Sequence record: OZ346222.1
Length of the DNA: 64,000 bases
Origin: a phage
Direction: 5' to 3' (one strand)
The position numbers and the translations under genes are program-made. Numbering within the stretch: the first letter of the stretch is position 1; every line of letters starts with the position of its first letter. Shown one piece after another: positions 17,409 to 32,194 of the stretch. Below the pieces are notes generated by a model. The model saw nothing but the letters and a program-made list of their open reading frames with translations, did not search any database and was not told where the DNA came from.

Positions 17409-17426
17409 TTTTTTAACTGAATTATC

Positions 17427-17452: not shown

Positions 17453-17889
17453 TCTGCTCTTCCCCCTACCATAAACGGCCCTACCTGGCAAGTGGAATAA
17501 TTGACGAGCCATCAATCCCACACACTGTACAAATATACATGTAAAATAACTATTGCATAACCTTTCATTGTGTGGTAGCGGTGCTATTTTTTACCTGTTT
17601 TCCTTCCAAAATTGCACGTAATGCAGCTATTGCACAAAATTTAACCTGATGCACATCTCCAATATCCTGTCAACAACTAAAAATCTTTATAAGTCATACA
17701 CTTACACAGCATCGAAAGCGTGTTCTACGCGAAAAATCGAGTATAACTATAGCCGCCAGATCTCAGAATTCACGTACGCACGCCATTCTATAGCCTGCAA
17801 AGTATTTATTCCAACCACAGAATAACGGAATAGTCAATACCTGAATAAAATAATTATTCGTTTAAACTGCATAACATAAATCAGCTCAG

Positions 17890-19410
17890 GTGTCAACATT
17901 TTTCGTAAACAGTCTGAAATTGTCACTGTGAGTTATCATAAACAGAGAAATCTTTAGTCGTATAATGTTTACTGTACGTTACTATACTGACTGGAATCAT
18001 TAGATGACTAATAGAAAGATAAGAAATAATTAACAATACAATTATTTTACCTGTAACAATAAGACAACTATGCAAACGAATGGCATGGCGCGACGGAGTC
18101 GCGACATAATATAAAAGCAGTAACCATCACCCCCGTGATGGTTTGTCTGCAATCTATTAATCAGATCATAGTTGCCTTGTATTCAGTTAATCATGACATA
18201 ATAAGCAAGGCAACTATAGATCTGCTAATAGTTGCCCTGCTTTTATATTATGTCATATATTATTAACTTGTTAATTGTTAACTTGCTAATTGTTTTCATG
18301 CAAACGAATGTCATGGCTTATCCTATCTGTGTAAACAGTTAAGGTGTAAACTATCCAGGCGTAAACAGTCTATGCGGGAACAATCTATACGTGAACAGTG
18401 AAACATGAAATAATAACAGTCGTTATTGTGTCGAAAGTGTATAAGGTGTCAGACAAGTTTTTCTCCTCTTTGTCAAGTGCTGCATGAAAAATTTACAAGC
18501 TTGTATGGTAGCATTTTTGCGGCCCTGTTTACATTCAGCGATGTATGTATAATCCTTGTTGTGTGGGCGTTTAGACGTCTAGACGGTCAGAAGTCTGCAG
18601 GTTAATACCTAATCTATCGGCTGCTAACTATATCCCACACAAATAGTAAGAAATATAATTGTTATGTGCGTAAACAGTAACTCATGTTATCAATCCCTGT
18701 ATGTATCGCCAGTGGTGCGCATAATGGGTATTATGTTAAATTGCCCGTAATGATAACTATTCTCACAATGATAGGTATTCTCATTCACTCCCACAAGATA
18801 GGTTGCAAATGTTGTGCCACTGTGTGAACGGCCTAACCTATTAATTTGCCTCACTGCCTCGATATTTGAGAATTGTTATAAGAATGAGAAGTATTCCCAT
18901 TTCGTCCGCCTGGCAGCACTCCAGTCGCTACCGCTCATGACAGGGCAGAACTAGACCCTCTTCAGATATTTCTGGCTGACTCTTCAGGTCTGTGTGGGAA
19001 AAGCCAACCTCTCCGGCGGCGGGGAGGGGGTCAATTAAAAAAAATTACGTGGTGCATGAAGCGCTCTTCAGGTAAGGCATGTGTTATGGGATGAAACCCT
19101 CTTCAGGCAATGATATTTGTGGGTGTGATATTTGCTGGAAAGCCAGATATGACGGGACTCCTGGCGGGGCAGGGGTAGTACAGACAGGGAAAATATGGGG
19201 GATGTAGTTGGGGAAATTGATCAGACAGGTAGAGTATGGAATATGTTACAAGTATGTTAAATAGGGAGGATGAATATCTGCAGGATTTGTGTGTAAAATC
19301 AAAGACTTAAGTGGTGTTGTGGTATTTTCTATAAATAATTCAAGTTTAATAGGTAATATTTGTCTCTATCCACTTTGTGTGGTAAACAGATTCAGATGAA
19401 ATTGGTTTAC
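17890..19410. repeat. iteron field: at least 8 copies of GTAAACAG(T) in both orientations
   Basis: Copies at about 17899, 17969(-), 18332, 18361, 18527(-), 18669, 19381 plus variants GTAAACTA, GTGAACAG; no ORF of 60 aa or more in 17545-19823. Confidence 0.6.
18150..18320. repeat. nested inverted and direct repeats
   Basis: ATAGTTGCCTTG / CAAGGCAACTAT perfect 12-bp inverted repeat, ATGACATAATA / TATTATGTCAT inverted repeat, TAATTGTT direct repeats, flanked by direct repeats ATGCAAACGAATG(G/T)CATGGC at about 18070 and 18298. Confidence 0.7.
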
Positions 19411-19873
19411 AAGTGTATACATAATATACAAATTAAAGATACAAGAAACCCCCCTCCCCCTTCGGCTACCATTCACCTTTTCCTCTGACTGGTACTTAAA
19501 CACTTATTCAGACTCTTCAGGTTATCACCCATATATCATATGGCAGTGACTGGTGTCCTCCGGCCCCTCTTTCGTCACCCGTCCGCTTCGCCATGCTAAT
19601 GCCATAGCCAATGGTTCGGTTGTTCACTCTGTTCACTCAGGTGTATCTCCATACCCCTTCAAACCGAAGAGAACAGAAAACCCGAATTACTCGGTAAAAG
19701 AAAAGAGAAGAACTTAATTTTATCAGGATAGGCAAGAATGTCAAGGCATGACTGCTCACTAAACAAGCAAACAGTCATGTGTGGAAGGTAAGTGATTGTG
19801 GTGGTGGGAAATTTAGTTGAAAGATGTGTTATAGGTGCGCTTCCAGCACTTTGGCCGGGCAGCTAATTGTGTG

Positions 19874-20089
19874 TCAGTCCAGCGGTTCATCCTCTACTTC
19901 ACTGAAATCAATGTTCATGGTCTCCTCCCAACCATCGATCTCAGCACAAGAGTGGAGTTCTTTAGGGTTTACTCCCAAAGCCTCAGCAACAGAGTCTATA
20001 TTTAACACCTCTGGCAGGTATGATTCATCGAATTCAAGGTAAATCAGGCCACGAGTGTTGTCAGCTCCACCAAATATCTCTATCTTCAT
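19874..20089 (-). CDS. hypothetical acidic protein (71 aa)
   Basis: Track ORF; last gene of leftward array. Confidence 0.5.
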   Translation of the reverse strand: MKIEIFGGADNTRGLIYLEFDESYLPEVLNIDSVAEALGVNPKELHSCAEIDGWEETMNIDFSEVEDEPLD

Positions 20090-20210
20090 GAAATCTCCTC
20101 TGGAAATGAGAGTGTGAACAGGGTTTTATACGTTCTAATGCACAGGAATTATACACGTTTGCCTCTTCAGGCCATGCTTTAGCATGAGGAACCTGTGTGG
20201 GCTCGGTGCT

Positions 20211-20423
20211 TCATAGTCTACCACCTCTGAACTCTTCGTGCTCAGGCATAATAGAGAACCAGATATCTACGATGTCCTCCCACGTCAGGTCATCAGCCTC
20301 AGGATCTGTCTGGGACGAAGATGAAGAGTCCTCAGAATCTAAGTTTTCCTCTTTAACTGGCTCATCCAAGGGACATATGGTCACTCCTTCGGATGTCTCT
20401 TCAGATGCATGTGTGTTGATCAT
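20211..20423 (-). CDS. hypothetical acidic protein (70 aa)
   Basis: Track ORF. Confidence 0.5.
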   Translation of the reverse strand: MINTHASEETSEGVTICPLDEPVKEENLDSEDSSSSSQTDPEADDLTWEDIVDIWFSIMPEHEEFRGGRL

Positions 20424-20521
20424 GTTCCCCCCGTGAGTATTCCGGCAACAGCCGCTATGGAAGTAATGATCATCAGGATCACCACTAAAACTTCAGACAA
20501 TGTTCTCATTGTGTATTCCAT
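20420..20521 (-). CDS. hypothetical membrane micro-protein (33 aa)
   Basis: Below track cutoff; GGAGAA RBS; stop overlaps ATG of downstream gene (ATGA). Confidence 0.4.
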   Translation of the reverse strand: MEYTMRTLSEVLVVILMIITSIAAVAGILTGGT

Positions 20522-20783
20522 ATTCTCCAAACTGTGTGTGGATACTATCACGGGAGCGGTAATGTGTCAACAGCAACGCCGCGAGGGTTTGGTTAAAATC
20601 CGAGCGTATGGTGATTTGGGTCAAAACGGACGTGCGTTCTCGCTACGCTCGAAAGAGAGACTTGTTTGTAGAAAGCTCTTAAACGCTCTGTAACGAGATT
20701 ATCTGTCCAAGGTATGCAATCGTGCACCAGATAAAGAAAAGGACGCCACAGAGCGTCCTAGGTGTCTTAAATTTGATATTTTG

Positions 20784-21095
20784 CTATACCCATGAGGGCT
20801 TATCAAGGTTGGAGTAGCTGAAAGGTGTCAAAAGGTGACTGTCAAAATCCCTCAAACTATCCAAATCTTTTTCCTCGTCCTGACACCATCTGTGCCTACA
20901 TTTATTGTTGTAGTGCATAGAATGCATAGCGTTCTGCAACTTAACAGGTACAAGTGATTCAGGAGTAGATAGTATTGTTGGGTATGCCAGAATCACCTCA
21001 AACAGTGGAAACACATCGAAACTAAAGTCTATCTCTGCAGAGGTTGATGGCATATAGGAGTATTTAGCCGCCTTTGTAGACATAATCCACCTCAC
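20784..21095 (-). CDS. hypothetical protein (103 aa)
   Basis: Track ORF in leftward array. Confidence 0.5.
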   Translation of the reverse strand: MRWIMSTKAAKYSYMPSTSAEIDFSFDVFPLFEVILAYPTILSTPESLVPVKLQNAMHSMHYNNKCRHRWCQDEEKDLDSLRDFDSHLLTPFSYSNLDKPSWV

Positions 21096-21209
21096 ACAGG
21101 TTTGATAATACCTTTACCGAATAATTCTTCGTATCTAATCTTATCCGGATCCCACTCTTGGATAATTTCGAAGACAATATCCAACCCAGGGATAATCACT
21201 TCTCCAGTG

Positions 21210-21419
21210 TCAAGTTTGGCAAGAACAAAACCAGAAGGCTGAATGGTTTCCCAGTTGTGCTTCATTGGAATAGAAGACCTCGAAAATATCGCCGACCTTT
21301 ATCTGTTGATCAAGATGTTCAAGATTCTCTTTCATATAGACGCAGCGGATTTTTCGTGCAGGCCAGAGACCACCTGCATCACGTTCATTTAGCTCTTTTA
21401 CAGTAATCGGTATACCCAT
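21210..21419 (-). CDS. hypothetical protein (69 aa)
   Basis: Track ORF in leftward array. Confidence 0.5.
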   Translation of the reverse strand: MGIPITVKELNERDAGGLWPARKIRCVYMKENLEHLDQQIKVGDIFEVFYSNEAQLGNHSAFWFCSCQT

Positions 21420-21436
21420 CTCAAATCTCCTTCATA

Positions 21437-21468
21437 GATAGTAAAAAGAGGGGCCCAAGCCCCCCTCT
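21437..21468 (-). terminator. intrinsic terminator (hairpin symmetric, may act on both strands)
   Basis: AGAGGGGGGCTTGGGCCCCTCTT flanked by T-runs on the minus strand. Confidence 0.5.
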
Positions 21469-21474
21469 TTGTCA

Positions 21475-21780
21475 TTATTCTACAGAGCGTTTGAACAGAA
21501 TGTCTGCCTCAGACATGTGCTCAACCTCTTCTTCGATTTTAGCGCGACGTTTTTCAGCCTCATAGCGAATATCGAACTCGGTAGCCACCAGAGATTTGAT
21601 GAATTTAGGAGAATACAGGTGATCCTGCTTCTCAACGAGAATGATATCCTTAATGGCATCTTTCAGATCTTTAATCTGAAGTTGGAGTTCTACCAGTTCT
21701 TCGATTGTTTTGCGAAGGCGATCACGCTCTGCAGTGTCAGAAGGAAGAGAGGTGAACAGTTCAACTTTAGATTTAGCCAT
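21475..21780 (-). CDS. hypothetical coiled-coil protein (101 aa)
   Basis: Track ORF. Confidence 0.55.
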   Translation of the reverse strand: MAKSKVELFTSLPSDTAERDRLRKTIEELVELQLQIKDLKDAIKDIILVEKQDHLYSPKFIKSLVATEFDIRYEAEKRRAKIEEEVEHMSEADILFKRSVE

Positions 21781-21808
21781 AGTAAGAGTCTCCTTATGTT
21801 GTTTTAAA

Positions 21809-22126
21809 TTAACGTTCTACAAAAATACCGTTCAGTTCAATAACCAGGAATTTCTGGTCTTCACTATCGTCTCGTGCCAGCACCTCACAGACGTATCGGT
21901 CATCCCCATCATCATCGCAGTCAAATACAAGACTGAGGACTTTATCATGGTAAACCTTCGCCACTACCGCCTCGTAAGTATTGCCGATTGTGAATCCAAG
22001 ATAATCTCCGATGCATTTGACAACAACATGGTCTCCAGCATTTAAGTCAATCTTCGTCATTACTGCGCTCCTTGGGTAATAATACTGTATGTAAAACTTT
22101 AACCAGAGATGTGAATAACGCCCCAA
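21809..22126 (-). CDS. hypothetical protein (105 aa)
   Basis: Track ORF. Confidence 0.55.
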   Translation of the reverse strand: MGRYSHLWLKFYIQYYYPRSAVMTKIDLNAGDHVVVKCIGDYLGFTIGNTYEAVVAKVYHDKVLSLVFDCDDDGDDRYVCEVLARDDSEDQKFLVIELNGIFVER

Positions 22127-22215
22127 AACACACCGATAGCGCTAAAACAGACAAGGCCATCATTAAAGCTTCAGTAAAATCAGTCATTCCTCACCTCTTG
22201 TTAGTCACTGTACTA

Positions 22216-22479
22216 TCATTTATCCTTGTCGTCAAGAACTTTTTTAAATCTTTCAGGGATATCTCCCGTTCTTAGATAGTTCATGACCTCGCAAGGTTCC
22301 CACTTGAATTTCTTACAGAGCAGGGCGGCTGAGATTGTTTCATTGCGAAAAGAAAGGATATTAATATCCCACTCTGAGAACCCCAACTTCCGAAGGGTAG
22401 CTACAGAAATCCTCACCGCAACCCAGCAGCAAAAACATGCAACAAACGCCACTGCTACAACCCACATCAGGATGTTCAT
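22216..22479 (-). CDS. membrane protein (87 aa)
   Basis: Track ORF; N-terminal TM helix. Confidence 0.5.
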   Translation of the reverse strand: MNILMWVVAVAFVACFCCWVAVRISVATLRKLGFSEWDINILSFRNETISAALLCKKFKWEPCEVMNYLRTGDIPERFKKVLDDKDK

Positions 22480-22568
22480 ATAAGCACCTTACTGAAATAC
22501 AAGACACAGTGTTAAGGTTACTGACCAGCAAATAATTAACAGTGCCGTTGCAACCTTTGCAAGATTTA

Positions 22569-22856
22569 TCATAGTGCCTCTAAGATTTCATATCCTTCGG
22601 GTCGGAATACAAGCCACTCCGTGGCTCCGTTTGGTCGATACGCTTTATACAGAACAACCTGGTCTCGGCACATGCACATGGCTACATAGTTTTCATCCAC
22701 ACCTGCAGCCTGCATTGCATCTTCTTCTCCGGCAACTGCTTTGCTTACAACTTCCTTGGTAGGCAGGTGTGCGATCAGCTCGTCACCATCATTAATTCCA
22801 AAATGGCTGAGTTCGCCGTTGGTATCTTTAATCTTAATCTTAACCAGATCTTTCAT
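22569..22856 (-). CDS. small acidic protein, paralog family B (95 aa)
   Basis: Track ORF; MK start and C-terminal YE(I/V)(V/L) motif shared with neighbours. Confidence 0.55.
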   Translation of the reverse strand: MKDLVKIKIKDTNGELSHFGINDGDELIAHLPTKEVVSKAVAGEEDAMQAAGVDENYVAMCMCRDQVVLYKAYRPNGATEWLVFRPEGYEILEAL

Positions 22857-23185
22857 TAGTCTTCCCCCAGGTTCAAAGGTCCTAAGATTTCATATGCCAG
22901 ATTAGAAGTTACAAGAGGGTCTTCTGCGTCTTTAGTATTATACCACCCGTGAATAACCAGAGTCCCACTTTGTTTCATGTCCAACTGGAACTCTTCTGCC
23001 GTTTCCTCATCCAGCTCCAAGATTTCCATAAGGTATTTGATGTTAGGGAGGTATGCAGCTGTTACAGTCCCCTCTACCAGACCTTCAGGCCAACCTACAT
23101 CTGGATGACAAGTAGGAACCAGGTTGGTCAGCTTAATGGTGTACGCTTTTTCTGCACGAGCCTTCAGTAACGGGTCAATCTTCAT
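22856..23185 (-). CDS. small acidic protein, paralog family B (109 aa)
   Basis: Track ORF; start/stop overlap with neighbours. Confidence 0.55.
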   Translation of the reverse strand: MKIDPLLKARAEKAYTIKLTNLVPTCHPDVGWPEGLVEGTVTAAYLPNIKYLMEILELDEETAEEFQLDMKQSGTLVIHGWYNTKDAEDPLVTSNLAYEILGPLNLGED

Positions 23186-23535
23186 TATTCGTCCTCCTCT
23201 TCGGTACCTGCTTCCAGTAATAAGTTAAGAATATCTTCTGCACAAGGTTCATAGAACTCTTGGCCTTCATTATCGATGATTTTGTAGTCATCTCCACGAA
23301 TAATCAGGGGATCACTATCAAAATTATCGAGACCTTTAACAACGACAACACGATCGATTGCCATCATTGTAAGAACTTTATCGACATCTTCCTCTGCTAC
23401 ACCATACTGCAGCAGAATGTCTTTGGTAGGAGGAACAGCATCCACCACAACGCCGTTACCAAAACCTTCTGGAAGTTTAGCTAAAATATCTTCCGGAACC
23501 ACATTCACATCAAAACCGGTAATTTCTACTTTCAT
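23185..23535 (-). CDS. small acidic protein, paralog family B (116 aa)
   Basis: Track ORF; MKVEITG start, acidic tail. Confidence 0.55.
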   Translation of the reverse strand: MKVEITGFDVNVVPEDILAKLPEGFGNGVVVDAVPPTKDILLQYGVAEEDVDKVLTMMAIDRVVVVKGLDNFDSDPLIIRGDDYKIIDNEGQEFYEPCAEDILNLLLEAGTEEEDE

Positions 23536-23796
23536 TTACAGCACCTCTTCGTCAACTACTTCATAAAAATGGCCTGGGATTGCAATAGCGTTCTCACCTT
23601 CACCTACAAACACAGTTCCGTCAAGAATCAACATCATAAGAATTTCTGTAATATCCTCTTCCGGAACGTTGCCAAAACCTTTAATCAGCTCGTAGGTTGG
23701 AATATTTACCTCTAAGATGTCACCATCTTTAGAACGGAAATCAACACCGTCCTGAATCTCTGCCGTTTCAAGGTTTTTCAATTTAATCTTCATCAA
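23536..23796 (-). CDS. small acidic protein, paralog family B (86 aa)
   Basis: Track ORF; ends FYEVVDEEVL. Confidence 0.55.
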   Translation of the reverse strand: MMKIKLKNLETAEIQDGVDFRSKDGDILEVNIPTYELIKGFGNVPEEDITEILMMLILDGTVFVGEGENAIAIPGHFYEVVDEEVL

Positions 23797-23872
23797 TCGG
23801 TCCCCTGTCTTGTTAAGATGAAGGTATTATTTCACACAGGGTTGGCGTTGTCAACACCTGTGTGCAAGAAAA

Positions 23873-24268
23873 TTACTGAAACAGTGCGGATAAATTACCT
23901 TCTGGTGGGAACTTATCTGCCAAAAACGGTGTTAGCACAGTAGCCTTCTGAAGATCTGGGGTCCACTCGTTGTTCAGAACATCCCAGTAGTACGCAATGT
24001 TGCTGTGTGGGTGCCGCATTACGAACTTTTTCCCTTCGTAGTCATCTGAAACCTCTACAGAAGAAATAACAACAGAATCTTCAAGGGTTTCTTCATAGAA
24101 AGATCCACCTTCAAATTTCCAACGAGATGCAAGAGCCCCTGCCTTGAACGCTGCAGATAACGGACTGTCGGCAAGAACATACATTTCTTGCACTCTGTCG
24201 CTGCGATCTTTGCTTCTTACGTTGTATACAGTATCTGAGCTATACTCAACACGGTATAGTCTTACCAT
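23873..24268 (-). CDS. hypothetical protein, paralog family C (131 aa)
   Basis: Track ORF; shares HP...YW...W(T)P motif with 26074..26472. Confidence 0.55.
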   Translation of the reverse strand: MVRLYRVEYSSDTVYNVRSKDRSDRVQEMYVLADSPLSAAFKAGALASRWKFEGGSFYEETLEDSVVISSVEVSDDYEGKKFVMRHPHSNIAYYWDVLNNEWTPDLQKATVLTPFLADKFPPEGNLSALFQ

Positions 24269-24627
24269 TACCGCACCTCCTCAATAACTTCCACATCTGA
24301 ACCCACCACAAATGCAAAAGGACAGGTTTCATGAAAGACATCCGGATCTCCGCCAAGCTTGCTAACAATTTCTCCACCACTAATAAACACAAGCTCACCG
24401 ATATTCATCAGATTGCTGAAATAGTATCCATAATGATTAAAGAATGCAGCAGGGTCAGGTAGACTAGTAGCCTCAAGTTCTACATCGGTTGAGATTACTT
24501 TCTTATCATAACCTCTCGCCTTCTGAGATGCAAGATCCGCAGAATCTTCAGGCGACCTGAGATGCACAGGAATTGTTTCACCAATAAAGCGTACTTTCAT
24601 ATTATCACCCAACAACCATAGCTTCAA
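24268..24627 (-). CDS. small acidic protein, paralog family A-like (119 aa)
   Basis: Track ORF; internal MKVRFIGE may be the true start; ends VEVIEEVR. Confidence 0.5.
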   Translation of the reverse strand: MKLWLLGDNMKVRFIGETIPVHLRSPEDSADLASQKARGYDKKVISTDVELEATSLPDPAAFFNHYGYYFSNLMNIGELVFISGGEIVSKLGGDPDVFHETCPFAFVVGSDVEVIEEVR

Positions 24628-24868
24628 AAGGGGTCATGAACGAATAAACGGCATCATCATCTGCTTCAGGGAATGCTCCCAAAGACTTCATGTCTGAGCC
24701 CTTGACAAATACAAGGTTTTGATCAAAAGCTTCTTGGGGATCAATCCGATACATATTTCGTAGAATATCGCTTACCTCCTCATCAAGAGGTGAGTATGCT
24801 GTGCACGTTTTTCCGATCAAGCTTTGAGAATCAGGGTATCCACCTGAAGTTTTAAAATAAACAATCAT
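24605..24868 (-). CDS. hypothetical protein (87 aa)
   Basis: Track ORF. Confidence 0.5.
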   Translation of the reverse strand: MIVYFKTSGGYPDSQSLIGKTCTAYSPLDEEVSDILRNMYRIDPQEAFDQNLVFVKGSDMKSLGAFPEADDDAVYSFMTPFEAMVVG

Positions 24869-24958
24869 ATAGTATCACCTCTGGTAAGAGATGGGATTCC
24901 TTTCCCACAAATAATTACAAACCTTCCTTATCGAGGAAGTATGCTAATCCAAGCAGGA

Positions 24959-25228
24959 TTATTCCTCTACAATCTCATACACATCAGGAGTTACAATCAA
25001 CTCTTCTCCGTTACCCGGTGCAATAAACACCACCAAACCTTCAGGTGTGTGCTTTTTAGCCATCTCGATAACATCTTCCCGCAGGGCTGGCTCCATCAGA
25101 TCAAAACCTTCACCCAGGGCATCACGAACCACCTTCATATAGTCCACTGGTTGTGCTTCAACAATCATGCCTTCAACCAGACCACAATTTTTGTCTGCCA
25201 GCTCAGTTTTGAATAATTTAATTTTCAT
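24959..25228 (-). CDS. small acidic protein, paralog family B (89 aa)
   Basis: Track ORF; MKIKLFK start, ends VYEIVEE. Confidence 0.55.
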   Translation of the reverse strand: MKIKLFKTELADKNCGLVEGMIVEAQPVDYMKVVRDALGEGFDLMEPALREDVIEMAKKHTPEGLVVFIAPGNGEELIVTPDVYEIVEE

Positions 25229-25261
25229 TTAGAGGTCTCCTCAATTATTTGATATTAATAG

Positions 25262-25363
25262 CCGTAACCTAACACATTAACTACAACTGCGATTGCAAAC
25301 ATAATTTCAAAGCATGCAATCTCTACATTTGGGACTAATTTCTTGATCACACCCATTGTAGCA
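25262..25363 (-). CDS. hypothetical hydrophobic micro-protein (33 aa)
   Basis: Below track cutoff; GAGGTG RBS 6 nt before ATG. Confidence 0.3.
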
Positions 25364-25365
25364 CC

Positions 25366-25683
25366 TCATTCTCTAAAGTCAATCTTTACTTTGCCTTTCC
25401 CCTTACCTTTCTTTCCACCGCATTTAGCCAGTTGACGTGCTGCAACATCTACCATACGGTCAGTTGCCTCGTAAGCATCACTGCCTTTAGCTTTGGCAAT
25501 AACTTCTTTTCCAGAATTGTCAAAAATGAACGCCATAACTTCCTGGTGATCATTTTCAACTTTTACACTCACACGTGCATAGTTGGCAGAGGGATGCAAA
25601 CGCTCCAGCTTAGACATTTTGTGGGAAATGAAAGACACCATACCTTCAGTGATTTCTACGTTGCCAGTGATTTCAATTTGCAT
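25366..25683 (-). CDS. hpf: ribosome hibernation promoting factor / RaiA-like protein
   Basis: Track ORF; MQIEITGNVEITEGM...KLERL...SVKVEN...AKAKGSDAYEATDRMVDVAARQLAK follows the bacterial HPF/YfiA pattern. Confidence 0.8.
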   Translation of the reverse strand: MQIEITGNVEITEGMVSFISHKMSKLERLHPSANYARVSVKVENDHQEVMAFIFDNSGKEVIAKAKGSDAYEATDRMVDVAARQLAKCGGKKGKGKGKVKIDFRE

Positions 25684-25765
25684 AACGTGTTCCTTTTAAA
25701 GAAGAGGGAACCAAACCCTCTTTGAAAACAATGATACTAAATCTGAAGCGTTGTGTCAACAGTTT

Positions 25766-26056
25766 TTACAGATTGTTGTCGATAGTTTTTAAAATATCCA
25801 CAGCAAGATCTGCCATTTTTCGAACATACTCTGCAAACTCAACAGGATCCTTGATCAAAGAATTCACAGGGTCGTACCCTAGAGCGTTCAAAATGGCTGC
25901 AGCATCTACAACCTTCTCATCATTTGCGAAGATCTCTCCATCAAACTTGTAGGTCCATTTTGAGTCAATCTTGGCAGGGAATGATTGGTCAACGCTTGTT
26001 ACACCATCCTTTTTAAACGCTCCGGTGTTATCAGTGTCTAGAACTAAATCCATCAT
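25766..26056 (-). CDS. hypothetical protein (96 aa)
   Basis: Track ORF. Confidence 0.5.
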   Translation of the reverse strand: MMDLVLDTDNTGAFKKDGVTSVDQSFPAKIDSKWTYKFDGEIFANDEKVVDAAAILNALGYDPVNSLIKDPVEFAEYVRKMADLAVDILKTIDNNL

Positions 26057-26073
26057 GTTAGTACCTCACCGTT

Positions 26074-26472
26074 TCAGTTTAGCTTTTCTTCAACAACCCC
26101 ATAGCTCGGGACAGAGTCAAGAGCTTTCTGGTTTAAAAGTGGTGTAGCAGAATCTGCAAACGGTGTCCAAGTTTTTGTTCTGGCGTTCCAGTAATGCTTC
26201 ACTCTGGAATCTGGATGCACTATAACAAAAACTTTTTCACTTGTCAACACATTAATTTCTTCCACACCCCTGCTGATAATTTCTCCGTCATATCCCCCGG
26301 TCTGGTATCCTTCGTACCAGGTTCTTGCATAGGCATAGCCAGCCTGCCAGCATGCAGCCTCCTCCGAGGTGGAGACTACGTAGAAGTCTTTCTCAAATTC
26401 TGGGATACGCCCTTGCTTTACGCTCCAAGCTCCGCGAATTTTCATTGTAACTTTGAATAGTTTATTTTTCAC
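26074..26472 (-). CDS. hypothetical protein, paralog family C (132 aa)
   Basis: Track ORF; paralog of 23873..24268. Confidence 0.55.
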   Translation of the reverse strand: MKNKLFKVTMKIRGAWSVKQGRIPEFEKDFYVVSTSEEAACWQAGYAYARTWYEGYQTGGYDGEIISRGVEEINVLTSEKVFVIVHPDSRVKHYWNARTKTWTPFADSATPLLNQKALDSVPSYGVVEEKLN

Positions 26473-26484
26473 AACGGTTACCCA

Positions 26485-26739
26485 TCACAGTTCTACAATA
26501 TCTGCATCTGACCCTGCCCCAAAGGCATAATAGGACTCTTCCCCGAAATAATATTCCGGTGCACCAGCAGCGATCAGGTCTGATCCCAAAATGAATACCA
26601 CGTTGTGGCCTACATAGCTGTGATTTTGCCGCACAGGATCATCCCACGGCAACCCTTCGAAGTATACCGCAGGGACGACCTTTCCTTTCAGGAAGGATTG
26701 CCCCAAGTAGACGTTAGAATCAAGAATTTTAACCTTCAT
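26485..26739 (-). CDS. small protein, paralog family A (84 aa)
   Basis: Track ORF; MKVKILD...GK(V)...LIAAGA motif. Confidence 0.55.
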   Translation of the reverse strand: MKVKILDSNVYLGQSFLKGKVVPAVYFEGLPWDDPVRQNHSYVGHNVVFILGSDLIAAGAPEYYFGEESYYAFGAGSDADIVEL

Positions 26740-26956
26740 GATCGTCCTCCACTATCTCTACATCCTCACCTAGGGCAAAGTTGTAGGTCCACTGACTGTC
26801 AAAGCATTCCTGAGATGCACCAGCGGCAATAAGATCTGCCCCTTTTATTTTTAAAAGGTCAGGGTAATCTTCGTTAGGGACAGCAGTAAACACTTTCCCT
26901 ACTAAAGGCTCCTGACCAATATAGAAGCTTGAATCTAAAACTTTAACTTTCATCAA
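26729..26956 (-). CDS. small acidic protein, paralog family A (75 aa)
   Basis: Track ORF; MKVKVLD...DLIAAGA; ends VEIVEDDHEG. Confidence 0.55.
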   Translation of the reverse strand: MMKVKVLDSSFYIGQEPLVGKVFTAVPNEDYPDLLKIKGADLIAAGASQECFDSQWTYNFALGEDVEIVEDDHEG

Positions 26957-27240
26957 CGGTCTCCATCAGGTGGTTGTGGGACGTAAACACTGTTACGAAT
27001 ATCGTCCGCAGTATAGTAATAAGTGTCTCCAACCCTATCTCTGGCTGCAATGTACTCTGCTATACCAATAAGTGCCATTGATTTGGTGGCGTATCTTCCC
27101 CACTCGTTAGCTCCCCAGTAGAATTTAGACCAGTAGGGAATAATACCGAACAAATATACCTTTTGACGAACTTCCCAGTAAGTGCCTTTTCCGACAAGTT
27201 TAAACTCTACTTCACTACTGTTAATCTTTTTCATTATCAA
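26953..27240 (-). CDS. hypothetical protein (95 aa)
   Basis: Track ORF; ATGA coupling. Confidence 0.5.
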   Translation of the reverse strand: MIMKKINSSEVEFKLVGKGTYWEVRQKVYLFGIIPYWSKFYWGANEWGRYATKSMALIGIAEYIAARDRVGDTYYYTADDIRNSVYVPQPPDGDR

Positions 27241-27533
27241 TCTCCCTCTACCGTGGTCGGATTGTCAGTAAGAAATTGAGCATTGGCTGGAGGCACGCCT
27301 GACATTTTCCACACAACCATAAGTTTGTAACCAGGAACTCTATTAAGTGCAGATCGAGTAGAGTTTGTGCACGTATACTTTCGCTTTCCAAACCCGTTCT
27401 CCATCATAATCCAGTACCCAGTATCTTTGTCACCAGGTATCGGTAGACCACCTTCATCAACCCACTGAATGGACCACGGCACGATGGCTACAGCTTTATA
27501 TTTAAACTTTTTAAACCACTCAAAAAGTTTCAT
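27237..27533 (-). CDS. hypothetical protein (98 aa)
   Basis: Track ORF. Confidence 0.5.
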   Translation of the reverse strand: MKLFEWFKKFKYKAVAIVPWSIQWVDEGGLPIPGDKDTGYWIMMENGFGKRKYTCTNSTRSALNRVPGYKLMVVWKMSGVPPANAQFLTDNPTTVEGD

Positions 27534-27628
27534 AATTCAGCCTCGCATAGACATAATCACTATAAACAGGCAAACAATGAATCCGAATGCCACGCCACCC
27601 ATAAACGTTAATATTGATGCAATCATAG

Positions 27629-27826
27629 TCAATCAGCCTCGCTTGGCAACTCTTCTACCTTAACATGCCGAAAAGTGTTACCGTAATGGTTGATCCATGA
27701 CATCAGCTCGCTTTCTTGCTCTTCCTCTGGGATGAACTCTCGAATGCTGACAAGTTTTAAGAAAACCCAATCACAATCTGCACCCATTCTACCAGACAGG
27801 CAATAGTGCTTCATAAAACCCCCCAC
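27629..27826 (-). CDS. hypothetical protein (65 aa)
   Basis: Track ORF. Confidence 0.5.
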   Translation of the reverse strand: MGGFMKHYCLSGRMGADCDWVFLKLVSIREFIPEEEQESELMSWINHYGNTFRHVKVEELPSEAD

Positions 27827-27831
27827 CTGGT

Positions 27832-28026
27832 TTAGAATATTGCTTCTTCCATTGCACCTGAGAGCAACAAAGAGGTGATCTGGCTAACATTCATCTCAGA
27901 CTCTACTTCCTCCCCTTTGAAAGGTTCGCGGCAGAATAGGACTGTTTCAGGACTTTTACTTCGAACAATATAATACAAATCATTCAATGTGTTGTAGTAA
28001 TAAGTGTTAAAACGTAAGTTTTTCAT
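27832..28026 (-). CDS. hypothetical protein (64 aa)
   Basis: Track ORF. Confidence 0.5.
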   Translation of the reverse strand: MKNLRFNTYYYNTLNDLYYIVRSKSPETVLFCREPFKGEEVESEMNVSQITSLLLSGAMEEAIF

Positions 28027-28310
28027 TTTCTAGTCCCCTTCTTAGATTTTTGTGTAGAAACGCTTTCTGCAATACGAGACAAACGTTCTTCTGAAGCCTT
28101 GCCTATTCCAGGTTTTTTGAGTGGGTTATCTTTATGACCACAATCCAATTGGATATTGGATACCTCTCCAACCTTGTAAGTCAATTCTAGCAAAAGGTTG
28201 TCGTCCTTGTCAAATGTTCTTACGATAAATTTTTTATCGTTCTCCTGAACTTCGTATCGGGTACCCGCAGTATACAGCATGGTGCCATCCGCATAGGATA
28301 TCCAGATCAT
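28023..28310 (-). CDS. hypothetical protein (95 aa)
   Basis: Track ORF; ATGA coupling. Confidence 0.5.
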   Translation of the reverse strand: MIWISYADGTMLYTAGTRYEVQENDKKFIVRTFDKDDNLLLELTYKVGEVSNIQLDCGHKDNPLKKPGIGKASEERLSRIAESVSTQKSKKGTRK

Positions 28311-28654
28311 TGAACCTCCTTCTGCTGCAACAGCATTAACTCTTTGTTGGAGATTTTTACTGCTGTTTTTATTGTTCCATCTTCACGAAACCACGACCAG
28401 AACTCTACAGTGTCACCACTATCAAGTAAAGCATGCCCATGGTAAAAATCTTTGTCCTTAGACAGTTTCTCATCTATATCTGCATCAACACATTCGTGAT
28501 CCATAGCATTTTGCCTGAACGCATCGGTTATGCCAATGCACGCCTTGCTCTCAAGACTGGTATATCCGATATCTTTTAATTCAGTTTCCCAAGTCCAGTA
28601 CCCTATAAAAGCTAAAACAGCTACCCACAGTAATAACGTTTTAATCTTTGGCAT
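28307..28654 (-). CDS. signal-anchored/secreted protein (115 aa)
   Basis: Track ORF; hydrophobic N-terminus LLLWVAVLAFIGYW. Confidence 0.5.
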   Translation of the reverse strand: MPKIKTLLLWVAVLAFIGYWTWETELKDIGYTSLESKACIGITDAFRQNAMDHECVDADIDEKLSKDKDFYHGHALLDSGDTVEFWSWFREDGTIKTAVKISNKELMLLQQKEVQ

Positions 28655-28716
28655 TCTCTCTACCTCTTTCTTAGTTTATTTCACTATGGCACATCCTTTG
28701 TGCCATATCTCAACTA

Positions 28717-28959
28717 CTACTTAAATAGTAGTTCAAAATAGTGCAAAATTAACAGAAGTTGAACTACACCTAGTGCAACGGCGAGTATGTTAATCTTAGA
28801 ATCGAAAAACTTCTTAACTTTTACTCTAAAAGGTTCCTTAATGTCCTTTACGATCCTATCTATAGATGACCTCATATCTCTGATTACCATCCTGAACATT
28901 AAAGACGGATGCTCCCCCCATCTCTGTAACGGAATCAAAAACATACTCTCTTCGGTCAT
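28717..28959 (-). CDS. hypothetical membrane protein (start uncertain)
   Basis: Track ORF overlapping the upstream gene by about 100 nt; true start probably an internal Met; hydrophobic C-terminus. Confidence 0.35.
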   Translation of the reverse strand: MTEESMFLIPLQRWGEHPSLMFRMVIRDMRSSIDRIVKDIKEPFRVKVKKFFDSKINILAVALGVVQLLLILHYFELLFK

Positions 28960-29188
28960 AAGGGCCGCCAGCTCTGCGTATTAACCTCTCCACAGAGACT
29001 TCGAACGTCACACCTGTAACGTAATCATCTATAACAAGTCGTGACGGGTCTTTACCTTTACTATCAAGAGGTATCAAAGTTATCTTTCCAGATTTTGTTA
29101 AAATTTCCCCTTTTTCAAGCAAGGTGTACCAATGCTCTCTGCCAAGACTGTTGAGGCACGTTTTTACATATTTAACAAACATCGTCAC
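28856..29188 (-). CDS. hypothetical protein (110 aa)
   Basis: Track ORF. Confidence 0.5.
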   Translation of the reverse strand: MTMFVKYVKTCLNSLGREHWYTLLEKGEILTKSGKITLIPLDSKGKDPSRLVIDDYVTGVTFEVSVERLIRRAGGPYDRREYVFDSVTEMGGASVFNVQDGNQRYEVIYR

Positions 29189-29388
29189 CCCTCATCGCAC
29201 GTCTGATATAACCACTCTATAAAATCTTGATACCATTCGCCCTCTGAGCGCTCCGTAGGCCAATAATCTTCACCCTCTCGTGCATTAAAATCTGAGTATT
29301 CAACTTTCCACTCCTTTACCAGCTCGTGGAGAAGGTTTTCAGCCTGCTCTAAAGATTTATTTTTTACCATTGCTGTCTCCTTTTTCAA
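29185..29388 (-). CDS. hypothetical protein (67 aa; second ATG with AAGGAGA RBS may be the true start)
   Basis: Track ORF. Confidence 0.5.
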   Translation of the reverse strand: MKKETAMVKNKSLEQAENLLHELVKEWKVEYSDFNAREGEDYWPTERSEGEWYQDFIEWLYQTCDEG

Positions 29389-29589
29389 GATAGTTATACA
29401 TCAGAACTGCACCACCTAAGATGGCTACCAGTAACAATACCCCAGATAGCATCTCAATAAACATGGCTTGAAACACTGGAAGGCCTCCCTAAATTAACGC
29501 ACCATTTTAAATACATGCTCTTTTCCCATAAAGGTGCCTGGCTAAGATCTGCGTAGAACGCAATCTCTTTAAGAACAGTATAAACAGTT

Positions 29590-29826
29590 TTAGGTGCGGT
29601 CTCCATCCCTACCCTCCTTTTTCTCCTTCCTGATATTCTTGTAGTAATCAACTAGGCACATTATTACGATGAAGATAACAACAGGCCAAAAAGGTGCAGC
29701 AGTGATGATGGTGATAAAATCATCAAACTTCACCCTTCGTCTGGACACGATGCATACACCTGTCAAGAATACCGCTGTTATAACGGACATTACCAGGTAA
29801 CCTATTAGCACAACATTTATACTCAT
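29590..29826 (-). CDS. membrane protein (78 aa, two TM helices)
   Basis: Track ORF. Confidence 0.55.
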   Translation of the reverse strand: MSINVVLIGYLVMSVITAVFLTGVCIVSRRRVKFDDFITIITAAPFWPVVIFIVIMCLVDYYKNIRKEKKEGRDGDRT

Positions 29827-29856
29827 TGGTCCTCCCTTTGTAGGTTAAATTGTATA

Positions 29857-30390
29857 CTACAAATGGTCGCTGAGGGTGTCAAGAAAATTATCCCGTTCTT
29901 TCTCAGAGTTTTCATGTGTGTAGCTGAAAAACATATCGAGAATAACCTTATTGATATATTCCAGCTCCTCTGTGTTCAGATGCTTAGCAGGATCTACAAT
30001 GACATCCCAAATATCATACAGACCACACTCATGATACCCATAACGCCACTCAATTGTCAAGCTGAGCGGCAAATCTTTACCTTCACAAACAACCTTCCAT
30101 CTACATATGTTGGTATCTGGTCGTACCTGTGCACGGTACACCTGCACAAAATCCAATTTGAATTTGAGGTACTCGTCATACAATTTAAGCACAAAGCTCT
30201 CGATTTGTGGAGACACTTTTGCAGCAAACTGTGCGTATTTGTACTTGCACTGGATGATCTTTCTGCGTTTTGCAGTTAAATTTTTTGCCGCCAGTTGTTC
30301 TTCAGTGTATCTCCACCTACGATCAACAAACGCAACAGGGTCTTTGTCCCCATAGAGGTCTTCCCAGTTAATCAGAAGCATACCTGTCAC
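29857..30390 (-). CDS. hypothetical protein (177 aa)
   Basis: Track ORF. Confidence 0.55.
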   Translation of the reverse strand: MTGMLLINWEDLYGDKDPVAFVDRRWRYTEEQLAAKNLTAKRRKIIQCKYKYAQFAAKVSPQIESFVLKLYDEYLKFKLDFVQVYRAQVRPDTNICRWKVVCEGKDLPLSLTIEWRYGYHECGLYDIWDVIVDPAKHLNTEELEYINKVILDMFFSYTHENSEKERDNFLDTLSDHL

Positions 30391-30620
30391 TCCTCCACAA
30401 CTTCAAGGCCTTTACCGCCTCGCTCTGGCAGATTACTTAAAGATAGGTAATACATATAATCAGGAGAGATCCTGCCAGACTCTGCACCTGCAGCTAGTAA
30501 ATCCTTCCCTTTAACCAGGACAACATTCTCGTTTGCAGATAGCCGTTTTGCTTCCACAATTTTACCAACACAGTCAACCAAGGAAGGGTACCCTAAATCT
30601 GTAAGAAATTTAACTTTCAT
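30387..30620 (-). CDS. small protein, paralog family A (77 aa)
   Basis: Track ORF; MKVKFLTD...GK(I)VEA...DLLAAGA; ends LEVVEE. Confidence 0.55.
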   Translation of the reverse strand: MKVKFLTDLGYPSLVDCVGKIVEAKRLSANENVVLVKGKDLLAAGAESGRISPDYMYYLSLSNLPERGGKGLEVVEE

Positions 30621-30657
30621 GCTACCTCCTACCTACCGTCCCTGGTAAGATAAATTA

Positions 30658-31056
30658 TTACTGAACAGAGCGCGGTGCTGGGAAGGATAACTCTTCTAAA
30701 GAGAAGATTTCATTTCCTACCACCCAAGTTGCTGGGTCATCTGGATCAACAGGTTGGATAATCATTACCTCATCCGCCTCGCACACACGTTTCCCACCCA
30801 TAGTAGCGTCAGCCACTAACATACGCGGCTCTTCAGAAATGCACAGGTAGCCACCTCGGCCCACTGTTCCTTCCACGGGATCCTGCCCTTTGACCACAAT
30901 GAATACCTTCTCTCCTGTGGAGATATTACTTTTCACACTAACAGTTTGACCAACTTTAGATGTACCGATCTTGGTGGCTTCAAACATTAAATCCCGAATT
31001 ACTGTTGCATAGTTGCCGGACACTTTCTTACCTTCTTTAGTAATCTCAATCTTCAT
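30658..31056 (-). CDS. hypothetical protein (132 aa)
   Basis: Track ORF. Confidence 0.55.
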   Translation of the reverse strand: MKIEITKEGKKVSGNYATVIRDLMFEATKIGTSKVGQTVSVKSNISTGEKVFIVVKGQDPVEGTVGRGGYLCISEEPRMLVADATMGGKRVCEADEVMIIQPVDPDDPATWVVGNEIFSLEELSFPAPRSVQ

Positions 31057-31328
31057 AATCTAGGCTCCTTAAATGAATCTATGTAATCAATTAAATCCCA
31101 AGCATCGCGATGGGCTGTCAGAGGGTATACTTCTCCGAGAGGGATCATAGCAATAAGTCTATCAAAAACCCAGTCTGGACGCAACATTTTATGGTGATAT
31201 TCCCACTCACCTTCCACAGATTTTTTCTGAGTGATCAGGATCTCTGTGTAGTGTTTCGCCTGTCTTGAGTAGATTGAAAATGACTTGTACATAAATGACC
31301 CCCTCTTGTTGAAAACAACAATACACAA
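31053..31328 (-). CDS. hypothetical protein (91 aa)
   Basis: Track ORF. Confidence 0.5.
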   Translation of the reverse strand: MCIVVFNKRGSFMYKSFSIYSRQAKHYTEILITQKKSVEGEWEYHHKMLRPDWVFDRLIAMIPLGEVYPLTAHRDAWDLIDYIDSFKEPRL

Positions 31329-31643
31329 CTACCAGGTTACTGTCAAGTAGGCAACCGTATTATTTTTCTCTGGGGAGATGCCAACAACATCTACCTGCAG
31401 ACCTCCTGCCCTTAAATCTCCAACAATGTGCGGGAAGTAATCTGAGAGATGCGAGGGTAGATTTATCGAAAATCCGCACCCCAGAAAGCCTGCTAACGCT
31501 TTATTTTGTATCTCCCCTACAATCGCATCATAAATGGAGTTAAGCTCGTCAGGGAGTGTTACAGGGCGTTTTAGCGCTAGCTGGTGTAATTTGTCCTTAG
31601 CACTCATTTTCATTTCAGGTCTACCTCTGGGGGTGCCAACCAC
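31329..31643 (-). CDS. hypothetical protein (104 aa)
   Basis: Track ORF. Confidence 0.5.
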   Translation of the reverse strand: MVGTPRGRPEMKMSAKDKLHQLALKRPVTLPDELNSIYDAIVGEIQNKALAGFLGCGFSINLPSHLSDYFPHIVGDLRAGGLQVDVVGISPEKNNTVAYLTVTW

Positions 31644-32143: not shown

Positions 32144-32194
32144 GCAAATCTCCAGATCATAAAAGCCCTCCGAAGAGGGCTTTAGAATTAATGT

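What the first reader, a model, noticed from the sequence alone, without database searches (positions are those of the whole stretch)
25366..25683. Phage-encoded ribosome hibernation factor (HPF/RaiA-like)
The 105-aa ORF follows the bacterial HPF/YfiA pattern from its MQIEITGN N-terminus through KLERL, AKAKGSDAY and ARQLAK, with a lysine/glycine-rich tail. An HPF inside a block of early small genes suggests direct manipulation of host ribosome activity during infection.
Basis: partly seen in the sequence, partly recalled or inferred. Interest (0 to 1): 0.6.

Follow-up and report, generated by a model that had tools for sequence, protein, structure and literature searches.

The report
Known phage-encoded ribosome hibernation factor homologue
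The ORF is a genuine homologue of the bacterial ribosome hibernation factor HPF carried by rV5-like E. coli phages, but it has been annotated since the rV5 genome was deposited and was tested in 2019, when it did not stay bound to salt-washed ribosomes, so what it does is still unknown.

Summary
Observation confirmed. Window 25366..25683 (minus strand) encodes a 105-aa protein that passes the curated cut-offs of Pfam PF02482 (48.3 vs 23.7 bits) and TIGR00741 (45.9 vs 40.9). It is 43% identical to E. coli HPF and 25% to RaiA. [quoted passage not shown]

The window is a Vequintavirus (99% to phage JohannBauhin). The gene is present in 118 phage records and is already annotated as HPF, RaiA or sigma-54 modulation factor.

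Mizuno et al. 2019 (Nat Commun 10:752) reported this gene in rV5 and expressed it in E. coli. It was found in lysate but not in high-salt-purified 70S/100S ribosomes, and 100S levels did not change.

What this analysis adds:
- There was one old acquisition, shared with a 64%-identical uncultured lineage.
- Composition matches the phage, and purifying selection is strong (dN/dS about 0.04-0.2).
- The gene has its own sigma70-type promoter.
- Ribosome contacts K23, K26, E60, R83, K87 and K91 are kept; T53F, H55F, K80V and K89G are changed.
- The tail is polycationic, Gly-rich and predicted disordered, unlike RaiA's acidic tail.

Most likely it is a phage-adapted short HPF that binds idle ribosomes reversibly. 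This is inferred, not shown. Novelty: already known.

The parts
25366..25683 (-). Complete CDS of the phage HPF homologue (105 aa plus TGA stop); orthologue of rV5 ORF144/gp139
   Evidence: ORF. Pfam, NCBIfam and PHROG hits. 99-100% identical proteins annotated as ribosome hibernation factor, RaiA or hpf. rV5 record.
25423..25683 (-). Folded S30AE/HPF domain, residues 1-87 (beta1 2-7, alpha1 13-29, beta2 33-43, beta3 46-55, beta4 60-67, alpha2 70-89)
   Evidence: AlphaFold2 model from a 52-sequence alignment: block-mean pLDDT 88-95 for residues 1-80 and 78 for residues 81-90. Foldseek: top 36 PDB hits are all HPF/RaiA/pY; 4HEI rmsd 1.0 A, 6H4N_x rmsd 1.1 A.
25369..25422 (-). Polycationic Gly/Lys-rich C-terminal tail, residues 88-105 (CGGKKGKGKGKVKIDFRE), predicted disordered
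   Evidence: pLDDT below 50 for residues 91-105. 7 K+R against 2 D+E, pI 10.0; the E. coli HPF tail is HKDKLKQH and the RaiA tail is acidic. The distal end varies between alleles through a frameshift and a truncation.
25731..25759 (-). Sigma70-type promoter-like site, TTGACA-17-TATCAT (11 of 12), starting 7 nt after the stop codon of the upstream gene
   Evidence: Scan. The same element is annotated 'Sigma70-type promoter; P144' in rV5 NC_011041. The -35 element and its position after the upstream stop are conserved in the divergent lineage L006.
25702..25722 (-). Possible 5'-UTR stem-loop (AAGAGGG / TTTGGTT / CCCTCTT); weak evidence
   Evidence: MFE -9.9 kcal/mol but z = -0.53 against shuffles. 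The stem is weakened or different in other alleles and absent in L006.
25691..25695 (-). Shine-Dalgarno-like AAGGA, 7 nt upstream of the ATG
   Evidence: Read from the sequence. A ribosome_binding_site is annotated at the same place in phage Murica.
25255..25356 (-). Downstream 33-aa hydrophobic ORF, probably translationally coupled to the HPF gene (GAGGTG overlaps the HPF stop; ATG 9 nt after it)
   Evidence: phrog_15151 at E=3.7e-26. Annotated as a CDS in rV5, V18 and JES2013. Absent from L006. A functional link to the HPF gene is not shown.

Best explanation
Identity (shown): the gene encodes a single-domain (short) member of the HPF/YfiA (S30AE) ribosome hibernation factor family. It was acquired once by an ancestor of the rV5-like phages and has been kept under strong purifying selection since. 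Mechanism (inferred): it is transcribed by host sigma70 RNA polymerase from its own promoter. Like cellular HPF, it docks its two-helix face in the 30S decoding channel (the A/P-site tRNA and mRNA path) of ribosomes that are not translating. It keeps about half of the canonical 16S rRNA contacts (K23, K26, E60, R83, K87, K91 in E. coli numbering) but has replaced T53, H55, K80 and K89, and it has gained a flexible polycationic Lys/Gly tail. I therefore expect electrostatic, salt-labile and readily reversible binding that parks or shields idle ribosomes, for example from RNases such as YbeY and RNase R that attack unprotected 16S rRNA. I do not expect it to lock ribosomes into RMF-dependent 100S dimers. 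The benefit to the phage would be a preserved ribosome pool that can be reused, especially in slow-growing or starved hosts.
For: Family membership:
- Pfam PF02482 scores 48.3 bits against a gathering score of 23.7.
- TIGR00741 scores 45.9 against a cut-off of 40.9.
- The protein is 43% identical to E. coli K-12 HPF and 25% to RaiA.
- The model has pLDDT 83.7 and superposes on ribosome-bound E. coli HPF 6H4N_x at 1.1 A; the top 36 PDB hits are all HPF/RaiA/pY.

The protein is functional:
- dN/dS is 0.04 (28 synonymous against 6 non-synonymous differences, window vs L003) and 0.06-0.2 for most other pairs.
- The gene is present in 118 phage records, out of 121 that share the locus.

Old, single acquisition:
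- The two phage lineages form one clade in 200 of 200 bootstraps, on a long branch.
- An exhaustive HMMER search found no cellular representative above about 45% identity.
- GC3 is 37%, like neighbouring phage genes, against 49% for host hpf.
- Synteny and the -35 element are kept in the 64%-identical lineage.

Expression: a TTGACA-17-TATCAT promoter lies directly upstream and is annotated P144 in rV5. Eight of the nine best sigma70-like sites in 16-36 kb are on the coding strand of this small-gene block.

Contact residues, kept and lost: read against the residue lists in bioRxiv 10.1101/2025.10.07.680626 and PMC4889938. In S. aureus HPF, mutating the K80/R83 equivalents abolished dimerisation but not binding.

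Weak binding fits the published result: the protein was present in lysate but absent from high-salt-purified ribosomes (PMC6375957).

Protective role of hibernation factors against YbeY and RNase R: PMC7913689.
Against: - The only experiment found no ribosome association and no effect on 100S. That is equally compatible with complete loss of ribosome binding.
- K80 is nearly invariant in enterobacterial HPF and RaiA, and K89 is listed among the strictly conserved contact residues; both are replaced. T53 and H55, which contact m2G966 and the uS9 tail, are both Phe.
- Expression timing, ribosome binding in infected cells and any phage phenotype are all unmeasured.
- The structure model was built from an alignment of HPF/RaiA sequences, so its fold match is not independent of the homology.
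- The ribosome-protection rationale is transferred from host physiology, not from phage data.
Confidence: 0.5

Rival explanations
1. Exapted fold. The protein has lost ribosome binding and uses the HPF-like (dsRBD-like) scaffold plus its polycationic tail to bind another RNA or protein during infection, for example an mRNA, a tRNA or a host factor.
For: It was not detected in purified 70S or 100S ribosomes although it was expressed. Contact residues T53, H55, K80 and K89 are replaced in both phage lineages. Whole-protein pI rose to 9.0, against 6.5 for E. coli HPF. The phage clade sits on a long branch. Strong purifying selection shows a function but does not say which one.
Against: R83 (which contacts m4C1402), K87, K91, K23, K26 and E60, and the structural core residues D69, Y71, D75 and Q84, are all retained. 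In S. aureus HPF, binding was lost only when basic residues on both helices were mutated together. The negative experiment used a high-salt wash and exponential-phase cells, caveats the authors state themselves.
Confidence: 0.2
2. Anti-hibernation decoy. The protein occupies the HPF/RaiA site weakly and reversibly, and its basic tail reaches toward the RMF/anti-Shine-Dalgarno region. Host RaiA, or HPF with RMF, then cannot lock ribosomes into inactive 70S or 100S particles, which keeps translation available for the phage in starved or stressed cells.
For: Loss of K80 resembles the S. aureus K84A/R87A mutant, which binds but does not dimerise. Expression did not increase 100S. The tail is 18 residues, against 8 in E. 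coli HPF, and is cationic. RaiA's longer tail is reported to run toward the RMF site. An early sigma70 promoter would place the protein in the cell before any stress response.
Against: There is no direct evidence. Any occupant of this site also blocks tRNA and mRNA, so it must leave before initiation. Tail length alone is not diagnostic: P. aeruginosa HPF is 102 aa. The distal tail tolerates a frameshift and a truncation. Dimerisation by S. aureus long HPF differs mechanistically from the E. coli RMF/HPF system.
Confidence: 0.15
3. Canonical HPF used for host shut-off. It works with host RMF to convert ribosomes into inactive 100S dimers and so shuts down host translation.
For: Closest to E. 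coli HPF by sequence and by fold. This is the default reading of the database annotations.
Against: There was no rise in 100S on expression. HPF binding does not distinguish host from phage mRNAs, so it would also inhibit phage translation. The score is well below the E. coli HPF equivalog cut-off, 55.8 against 125 bits. The dimerisation-linked K80 is lost.
Confidence: 0.1
4. Decaying passenger gene with no function.
For: No phenotype or ribosome association has been reported.
Against: dN/dS is 0.04-0.2. The gene is retained in 118 phage records and in a lineage so diverged that synonymous sites are saturated. It has its own conserved promoter, and its codon composition matches the phage.
Confidence: 0.03

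Closest known systems
E. coli HPF (YhbH; PDB 2RQL, 4V8H, 6H4N), the short hibernation promoting factor
   Same: [quoted passage not shown] 43% identity over residues 1-88. Keeps K23, K26, E60, R83, K87, K91, D69, Y71, D75 and Q84. Short basic C-terminus.
   Different: Scores 55.8 bits against the 125-bit equivalog cut-off. Substitutions are R17V, T53F, H55F, G58S, E66K, K80V and K89G. One-residue insertion in the beta3-beta4 loop. The tail is 18 residues of Lys/Gly against 8 residues. pI is 9.0 against 6.5. It is driven by a sigma70 promoter in a phage small-gene block, whereas the host gene sits in the rpoN-hpf-ptsN operon. It was not recovered on salt-washed ribosomes and did not change 100S.
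E. coli RaiA (YfiA, protein Y)
   Same: Same Pfam family and fold. Both carry a C-terminal extension beyond alpha2. RefSeq names the phage protein 'RaiA'.
   Different: Only 25% identity. Scores 17.6 bits against the 158-bit cut-off of NF007654. Falls outside the RaiA clade. RaiA's tail is 26 residues and acidic (net -3), whereas the phage tail is cationic (net +5). The RaiA label is a generic naming artefact.
rV5 gp144/ABI79209 and other Vequintavirus HPFs (Mizuno et al. 2019, Nat Commun 10:752)
   Same: This is the same gene: 99% identical to the rV5 protein, at the same locus with the same promoter.
   Different: Only allelic differences, for example C-terminal ...DFRE here against ...DFGE in rV5.
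HPF-like genes of jumbo phages (Cronobacter GAP32, E. coli PBECO4, Yersinia fHe-Yen9-04, Xanthomonas XaC1)
   Same: Phage-encoded, single S30AE domain, found by fold and sequence search.
   Different: Only 20-24% identical to the window protein, so they look like independent acquisitions. The two examined (XaC1 and fHe-Yen9-04) keep K80 but lack R83 and have acidic, RaiA-like tails.
Virus-encoded ribosomal proteins bS21 and bL12
   Same: Translation-machinery genes carried by phages, reported in the same study.
   Different: Those proteins were shown to be incorporated into E. coli 70S ribosomes. The phage HPF was not.

Membership tests
HPF/YfiA (S30AE) family: Pfam PF02482, TIGR00741 | Sequence match above the curated family thresholds | tested here: met
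   PF02482 48.3 bits against GA 23.7, E=1.8e-12, profile positions 1-83 of 88. TIGR00741 45.9 against 40.9.
HPF/YfiA (S30AE) family | [quoted passage not shown] | tested here: met
   Predicted elements E2-7, H13-29, E33-43, E46-55, E60-67, H70-89, with mean pLDDT 83.7. The top 36 Foldseek PDB hits are all HPF/RaiA/pY, with TM-score (normalised to the target) up to 0.93. The single-sequence model gives the same topology. This is a prediction, and it is informed by a homologue alignment.
HPF/YfiA (S30AE) family | Conserved basic patches on alpha1 and alpha2 that contact 16S rRNA (E. coli K23, K26; K80, R83, K87, K89, K91) | tested here: inconclusive
   K23, K26, R83, K87 and K91 are kept. K80 is Val (Thr in the 64% relative) and K89 is Gly. 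Extra lysines in the tail may compensate, but this is untested.
HPF/YfiA (S30AE) family | Binds the 30S decoding region of 70S ribosomes and blocks tRNA and mRNA binding | not testable with these tools
   Published test for the rV5 allele: present in lysate but absent from high-salt-purified 70S/100S. The authors give caveats (PMC6375957).
Short HPF of gammaproteobacteria (E. coli HPF equivalog NF007780) | Equivalog-level sequence score | tested here: not met
   55.8 bits against a cut-off of 125. 41-44% identity to enterobacterial HPFs.
Short HPF of gammaproteobacteria | Converts RMF-induced 90S particles into 100S ribosome dimers | not testable with these tools
   No change in 100S on expression in exponential-phase E. 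coli. Not tested together with RMF or in stationary phase.
RaiA/YfiA (NF007654) | Equivalog-level score, and a long C-terminal extension ending in an acidic stretch | tested here: not met
   17.6 bits against 158. 25% identity. The tail is cationic rather than acidic. The protein falls outside the RaiA clade.
Long HPF (Firmicutes type) | C-terminal dimerisation domain after a linker | tested here: not met
   The protein is 105 aa. The only family-level Pfam hit is the N-terminal S30AE domain, and residues 91-105 are predicted disordered.

The most novel reading that the evidence does not exclude
The vequintavirus protein is a phage-evolved derivative of HPF with an altered job. It has traded tight, dimer-promoting binding (loss of K80, K89, T53 and H55) for fast, tail-assisted electrostatic binding. 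In that form it could shield the decoding centre and 16S 3' end of host ribosomes from RNases or ribosome-targeting defence toxins during infection. Alternatively it could compete with host RaiA or HPF/RMF and stop the infected cell from putting its ribosomes into hibernation. Either role would make it a counter-measure aimed at the host's translational shutdown, not a simple copy of a host gene.
Probability: 0.15. Interest if true: 0.7.

Novelty: already known. Interest (0 to 1): 0.28.

Why it matters
Phage genes that act on the ribosome directly are rare, and their mechanisms are poorly understood. This one is conserved in a large, therapeutically relevant group of E. coli phages, is under strong purifying selection, and still has no demonstrated activity. 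If it does bind ribosomes in infected cells, it would show how a lytic phage handles the host's idle ribosome pool or its starvation response. That bears on phage efficacy against slow-growing bacteria. As a discovery, however, it is not new: the presence and family identity of the gene are in the databases and in a 2019 paper.

Tried and rejected
1. A second HPF-like gene. The 89-aa ORF at 24959..25228 is annotated 'sigma 54 modulation factor' in many records. It has no Pfam hit and no similarity to the HPF ORF, so I rejected it as a propagated mis-annotation.

2. The 5'-UTR hairpin as a regulatory element. It is not better than shuffled sequence (z = -0.53), it varies between alleles and it is absent in the divergent lineage, so I kept it only as a weak feature.

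3. A RaiA-like tail. Rejected on charge and sequence.

4. Recent capture from the host, as suggested in the 2019 paper. This is not supported: 43% identity to host HPF, phage-like GC3, a long branch and a shared ancestor with a 64% lineage.

5. Convergent loss of K80 in other phage HPFs. Not seen: the jumbo-phage homologues keep K80 and lack R83 instead.

6. The word-indexed homologue search with the single protein found only close relatives. The viral-contig scan gave only two loci.

7. The one search hit P0006 (1160 aa) is a spurious match to a repeat protein.

8. Literature searches found no transcriptome of a vequintavirus, no knockout of this gene and no follow-up to the 2019 experiment. 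The LL12 host-factor screen paper does not mention hibernation genes.

9. The single-sequence AlphaFold model was low-confidence (pLDDT 52) and was replaced by the alignment-based model.

Full report
**1. The observation**

The window has an ATG-initiated ORF of 105 codons at 25366..25683 on the minus strand. An AAGGA Shine-Dalgarno-like sequence lies 7 nt upstream of the ATG.

The match to the hibernation-factor family is not chance:
- Pfam PF02482 (Ribosomal_S30AE): E=1.8e-12, 48.3 bits against a gathering score of 23.7, covering profile positions 1-83 of 88.
- TIGR00741 (HPF/YfiA family): 45.9 bits against a cut-off of 40.9.
- Best solved-structure matches: E. coli HPF (2RQL, 4V8H, 6H4N) at E=5e-12 to 2e-11 over residues 1-89.

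**2. What genome this is, and what is already known**

The surrounding 3 kb is 99.0% identical to Escherichia phage JohannBauhin and 95-99% identical to about 100 other Vequintavirus (rV5-like) myoviruses.

tblastn finds the protein in 118 phage records, nearly all at 95% identity or more. It is annotated there as 'ribosome hibernation factor', 'hpf', 'ribosome-associated translation inhibitor RaiA' or 'sigma 54 modulation factor', and in a few records wrongly as 'ATP-dependent protease La'. The rV5 reference record describes ORF 144 as similar to the Klebsiella sigma-54 modulation protein and annotates a sigma70-type promoter, P144, in front of it.

Mizuno et al. 2019 (Nat Commun 10:752; PMC6375957) listed this gene in rV5, FV3, JES-2013, typing phage 14 and FFH2, and then tested it. 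rV5 HPF expressed from pBAD24 in E. coli NM522 was detected by mass spectrometry in crude extract. It was not detected in 70S or 100S ribosomes purified under high salt, and the 100S peak did not change. [quoted passage not shown]

I found no follow-up study, no transcriptome and no knockout.

**3. Which kind of family member it is**

The protein is 43% identical to E. coli K-12 HPF and 25% identical to RaiA. It scores far below the equivalog cut-offs of both: 55.8 against 125 bits for HPF, and 17.6 against 158 bits for RaiA.

In a neighbour-joining tree it lies outside the RaiA clade. It forms a clade, supported in 200 of 200 bootstraps, with one other protein, P0004 (64% identity, 103 aa). 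That clade sits on a long branch and is not nested among the enterobacterial HPFs.

An exhaustive HMMER scan of 1.84 billion cluster representatives found only 22 hits at E<=1e-3. None apart from P0004 exceeded about 45% identity.

P0004 is encoded on uncultured vequintavirus-like contigs of up to 137 kb. It sits at the syntenic position and has the same TTGACA element directly after the stop codon of the upstream gene.

The gene's GC3 is 37%, like its phage neighbours (34-43%) and unlike host hpf (49%).

Together these results indicate one old acquisition followed by long residence in the phage lineage. They do not support the 'relatively recent' transfer suggested in 2019.

**4. Structure**

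A model built from a 52-sequence alignment has mean pLDDT 83.7. Block-mean pLDDT is 88-95 for residues 1-80 and 78 for residues 81-90. Residues 91-105 are below 50, which I read as a disordered tail. [quoted passage not shown]

The top 36 Foldseek matches in the PDB are all HPF, RaiA or protein Y. The best are V. cholerae HPF 4HEI (rmsd 1.0 A) and E. coli HPF in the hibernating 70S of the 100S ribosome, 6H4N_x (rmsd 1.1 A). The single-sequence model gave the same topology at low confidence.

**5. Is it functional?**

Across 12 alleles, the folded domain is almost invariant.
- Window vs L003: 28 synonymous and 6 non-synonymous differences (dS 0.63, dN 0.025, dN/dS 0.04).
- Most other pairs: dN/dS of 0.06-0.2.
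- Against the P0004 lineage: synonymous sites are saturated, and dN is 0.31.

The distal tail is less constrained. APCEc02 has a frameshifted end (...CGRKKGKGERQSKD), Murica is truncated (...GKGKAK), and some alleles carry an extra Asn that restores the E. coli-like 'GNNVEIT'. The proximal basic stretch is kept throughout the rV5-type alleles. P0004's tail differs in sequence but is also basic.

**6. Ribosome-contact residues**

Recent cryo-EM work on Gram-negative HPF and RaiA lists these contacts: K26 and Q29 (near m3U1498); T53 and H/V62 (to m2G966); H55 and E60 (to the uS9 C-terminus); and the strictly conserved alpha2 residues K80, R83, K87, K89 and K91 (bioRxiv 10.1101/2025.10.07.680626).

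In S. aureus HPF, mutating the K80/R83 equivalents abolished dimerisation but not binding. Binding was lost only when the alpha1 pair was mutated as well (PMC4889938).

In E. coli numbering, the phage protein:
- keeps K23, K26, E60, R83, K87 and K91, and the core residues D69, Y71, D75 and Q84;
- has R17V, T53F, H55F, G58S, E66K, K80V (Thr in P0004) and K89G (Ser in P0004).

K80 is at least 90% conserved in my enterobacterial HPF/RaiA alignment, although a few distant family members also lack it.

The 18-residue tail has 7 K+R against 2 D+E (pI 10.0), which raises the whole-protein pI to 9.0. E. coli HPF has pI 6.5. RaiA's 26-residue tail is acidic.

Independently acquired jumbo-phage HPFs (XaC1, fHe-Yen9-04) keep K80, lack R83 and have acidic tails. 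The vequintavirus pattern is therefore lineage-specific and not a general phage signature.

**7. Expression context**

The 82-nt spacer upstream of the gene contains TTGACA-17-TATCAT (11 of 12 matches) at 25759..25731 on the coding strand. This is the P144 promoter of the rV5 record.

Between 16 and 36 kb, eight of the nine sites scoring 11-12 of 12 lie on the minus strand, spaced through the small-gene block. This fits transcription by unmodified host RNA polymerase. The 'early' timing is an inference: the rV5 paper predicted 33 sigma70-like promoters across the whole genome and did not measure timing.

A stem-loop at 25722..25702 would sit at the 5' end of the transcript. It is not better than shuffled sequence and is not conserved.

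A 33-aa hydrophobic ORF (25356..25255) starts 9 nt after the HPF stop codon, with its GAGGTG overlapping that stop, so it is probably translationally coupled.

**8. Interpretation**

- Shown: this is a genuine, selected, single-domain HPF-family protein of phage lineage. It has an HPF-like fold, a partly altered rRNA-contact surface and a new cationic tail.
- Inferred: it still targets the decoding channel of idle ribosomes, but binds in a salt-labile, reversible way. That would reconcile the retained core contacts with the 2019 negative result. [quoted passage not shown]
- Rivals: exaptation to a non-ribosomal target, an anti-hibernation decoy, canonical 100S-promoting shut-off, or a dead passenger gene. 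The selection data effectively exclude the last.

**9. Verdict**

The finding is already known and partly tested, and the functional claim remains open. Interest is modest. The residue-level and evolutionary details above mainly sharpen which experiments would settle the function.

Noticed in passing
window 24959..25228 (-): This 89-aa ORF is annotated 'sigma 54 modulation factor' in many GenBank vequintavirus records (MN850xxx series, APCEc02 gp082, A6-1). It has no Pfam hit and no similarity to the real HPF ORF, so this looks like a propagated mis-annotation.
   Followed up: yes
window 25366..25683 (-), in other records: The genuine HPF gene is labelled 'ATP-dependent protease La type I' in MT884008-11 and OR0625xx, and 'RaiA' in RefSeq. 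Neither label fits.
   Followed up: partly
window 25255..25356 (-): A 33-aa hydrophobic ORF (MGVIKKLVPNVEIACFEIMFAIAVVVNVLGYGY, phrog_15151) starts 9 nt after the HPF stop codon, with its SD overlapping that stop. It is probably a co-translated small membrane peptide. It is absent from the divergent lineage L006.
   Followed up: partly
window 23873..24268, 26074..26472, 26485..26739, 26729..26956, 24605..24868 (all -): The HPF gene is flanked by paralogous small-gene families of unknown function: two copies of phrog_7379, and two or three copies of phrog_5009.
   Followed up: no
window 60743..61555 (+): A cluster of seven tRNA genes (Arg-tct, Tyr, Ser, Thr, Met, Pro). It includes a 99-nt 'tRNA-???' that ARAGORN reads with a four-base anticodon, atcc, at 61212..61310.
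   Followed up: no
phage collection records MG0656xx (e.g. L014): Eighteen 'Campylobacter phage' records, flagged UNVERIFIED, are about 97% identical to E. coli vequintaviruses at this locus. The host label is doubtful.
   Followed up: no
L006-L008 (Logan contigs ERR6997038_58 etc.): An uncultured vequintavirus-like lineage (contigs up to 137 kb) is absent from the phage collection. It matches known vequintaviruses at only about 80-88% nucleotide identity, in patches, and carries a 64%-identical HPF at the syntenic position.
   Followed up: partly
L017 1501..1890; L018 283..630: The jumbo phages Xanthomonas XaC1 and Yersinia fHe-Yen9-04 encode independent HPF-like proteins (129 and 115 aa). 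Both keep Lys80, lack Arg83 and have acidic tails. In XaC1 the gene lies close to a tRNA nucleotidyltransferase gene.
   Followed up: partly
window 16000..35900 (-): Near-consensus sigma70 promoter-like sites with a perfect TTGACA recur every 1.5-4 kb on the coding strand of the small-gene block: 35064, 33673, 30060, 28213, 26247, 25759, 23854 and 19744.
   Followed up: partly
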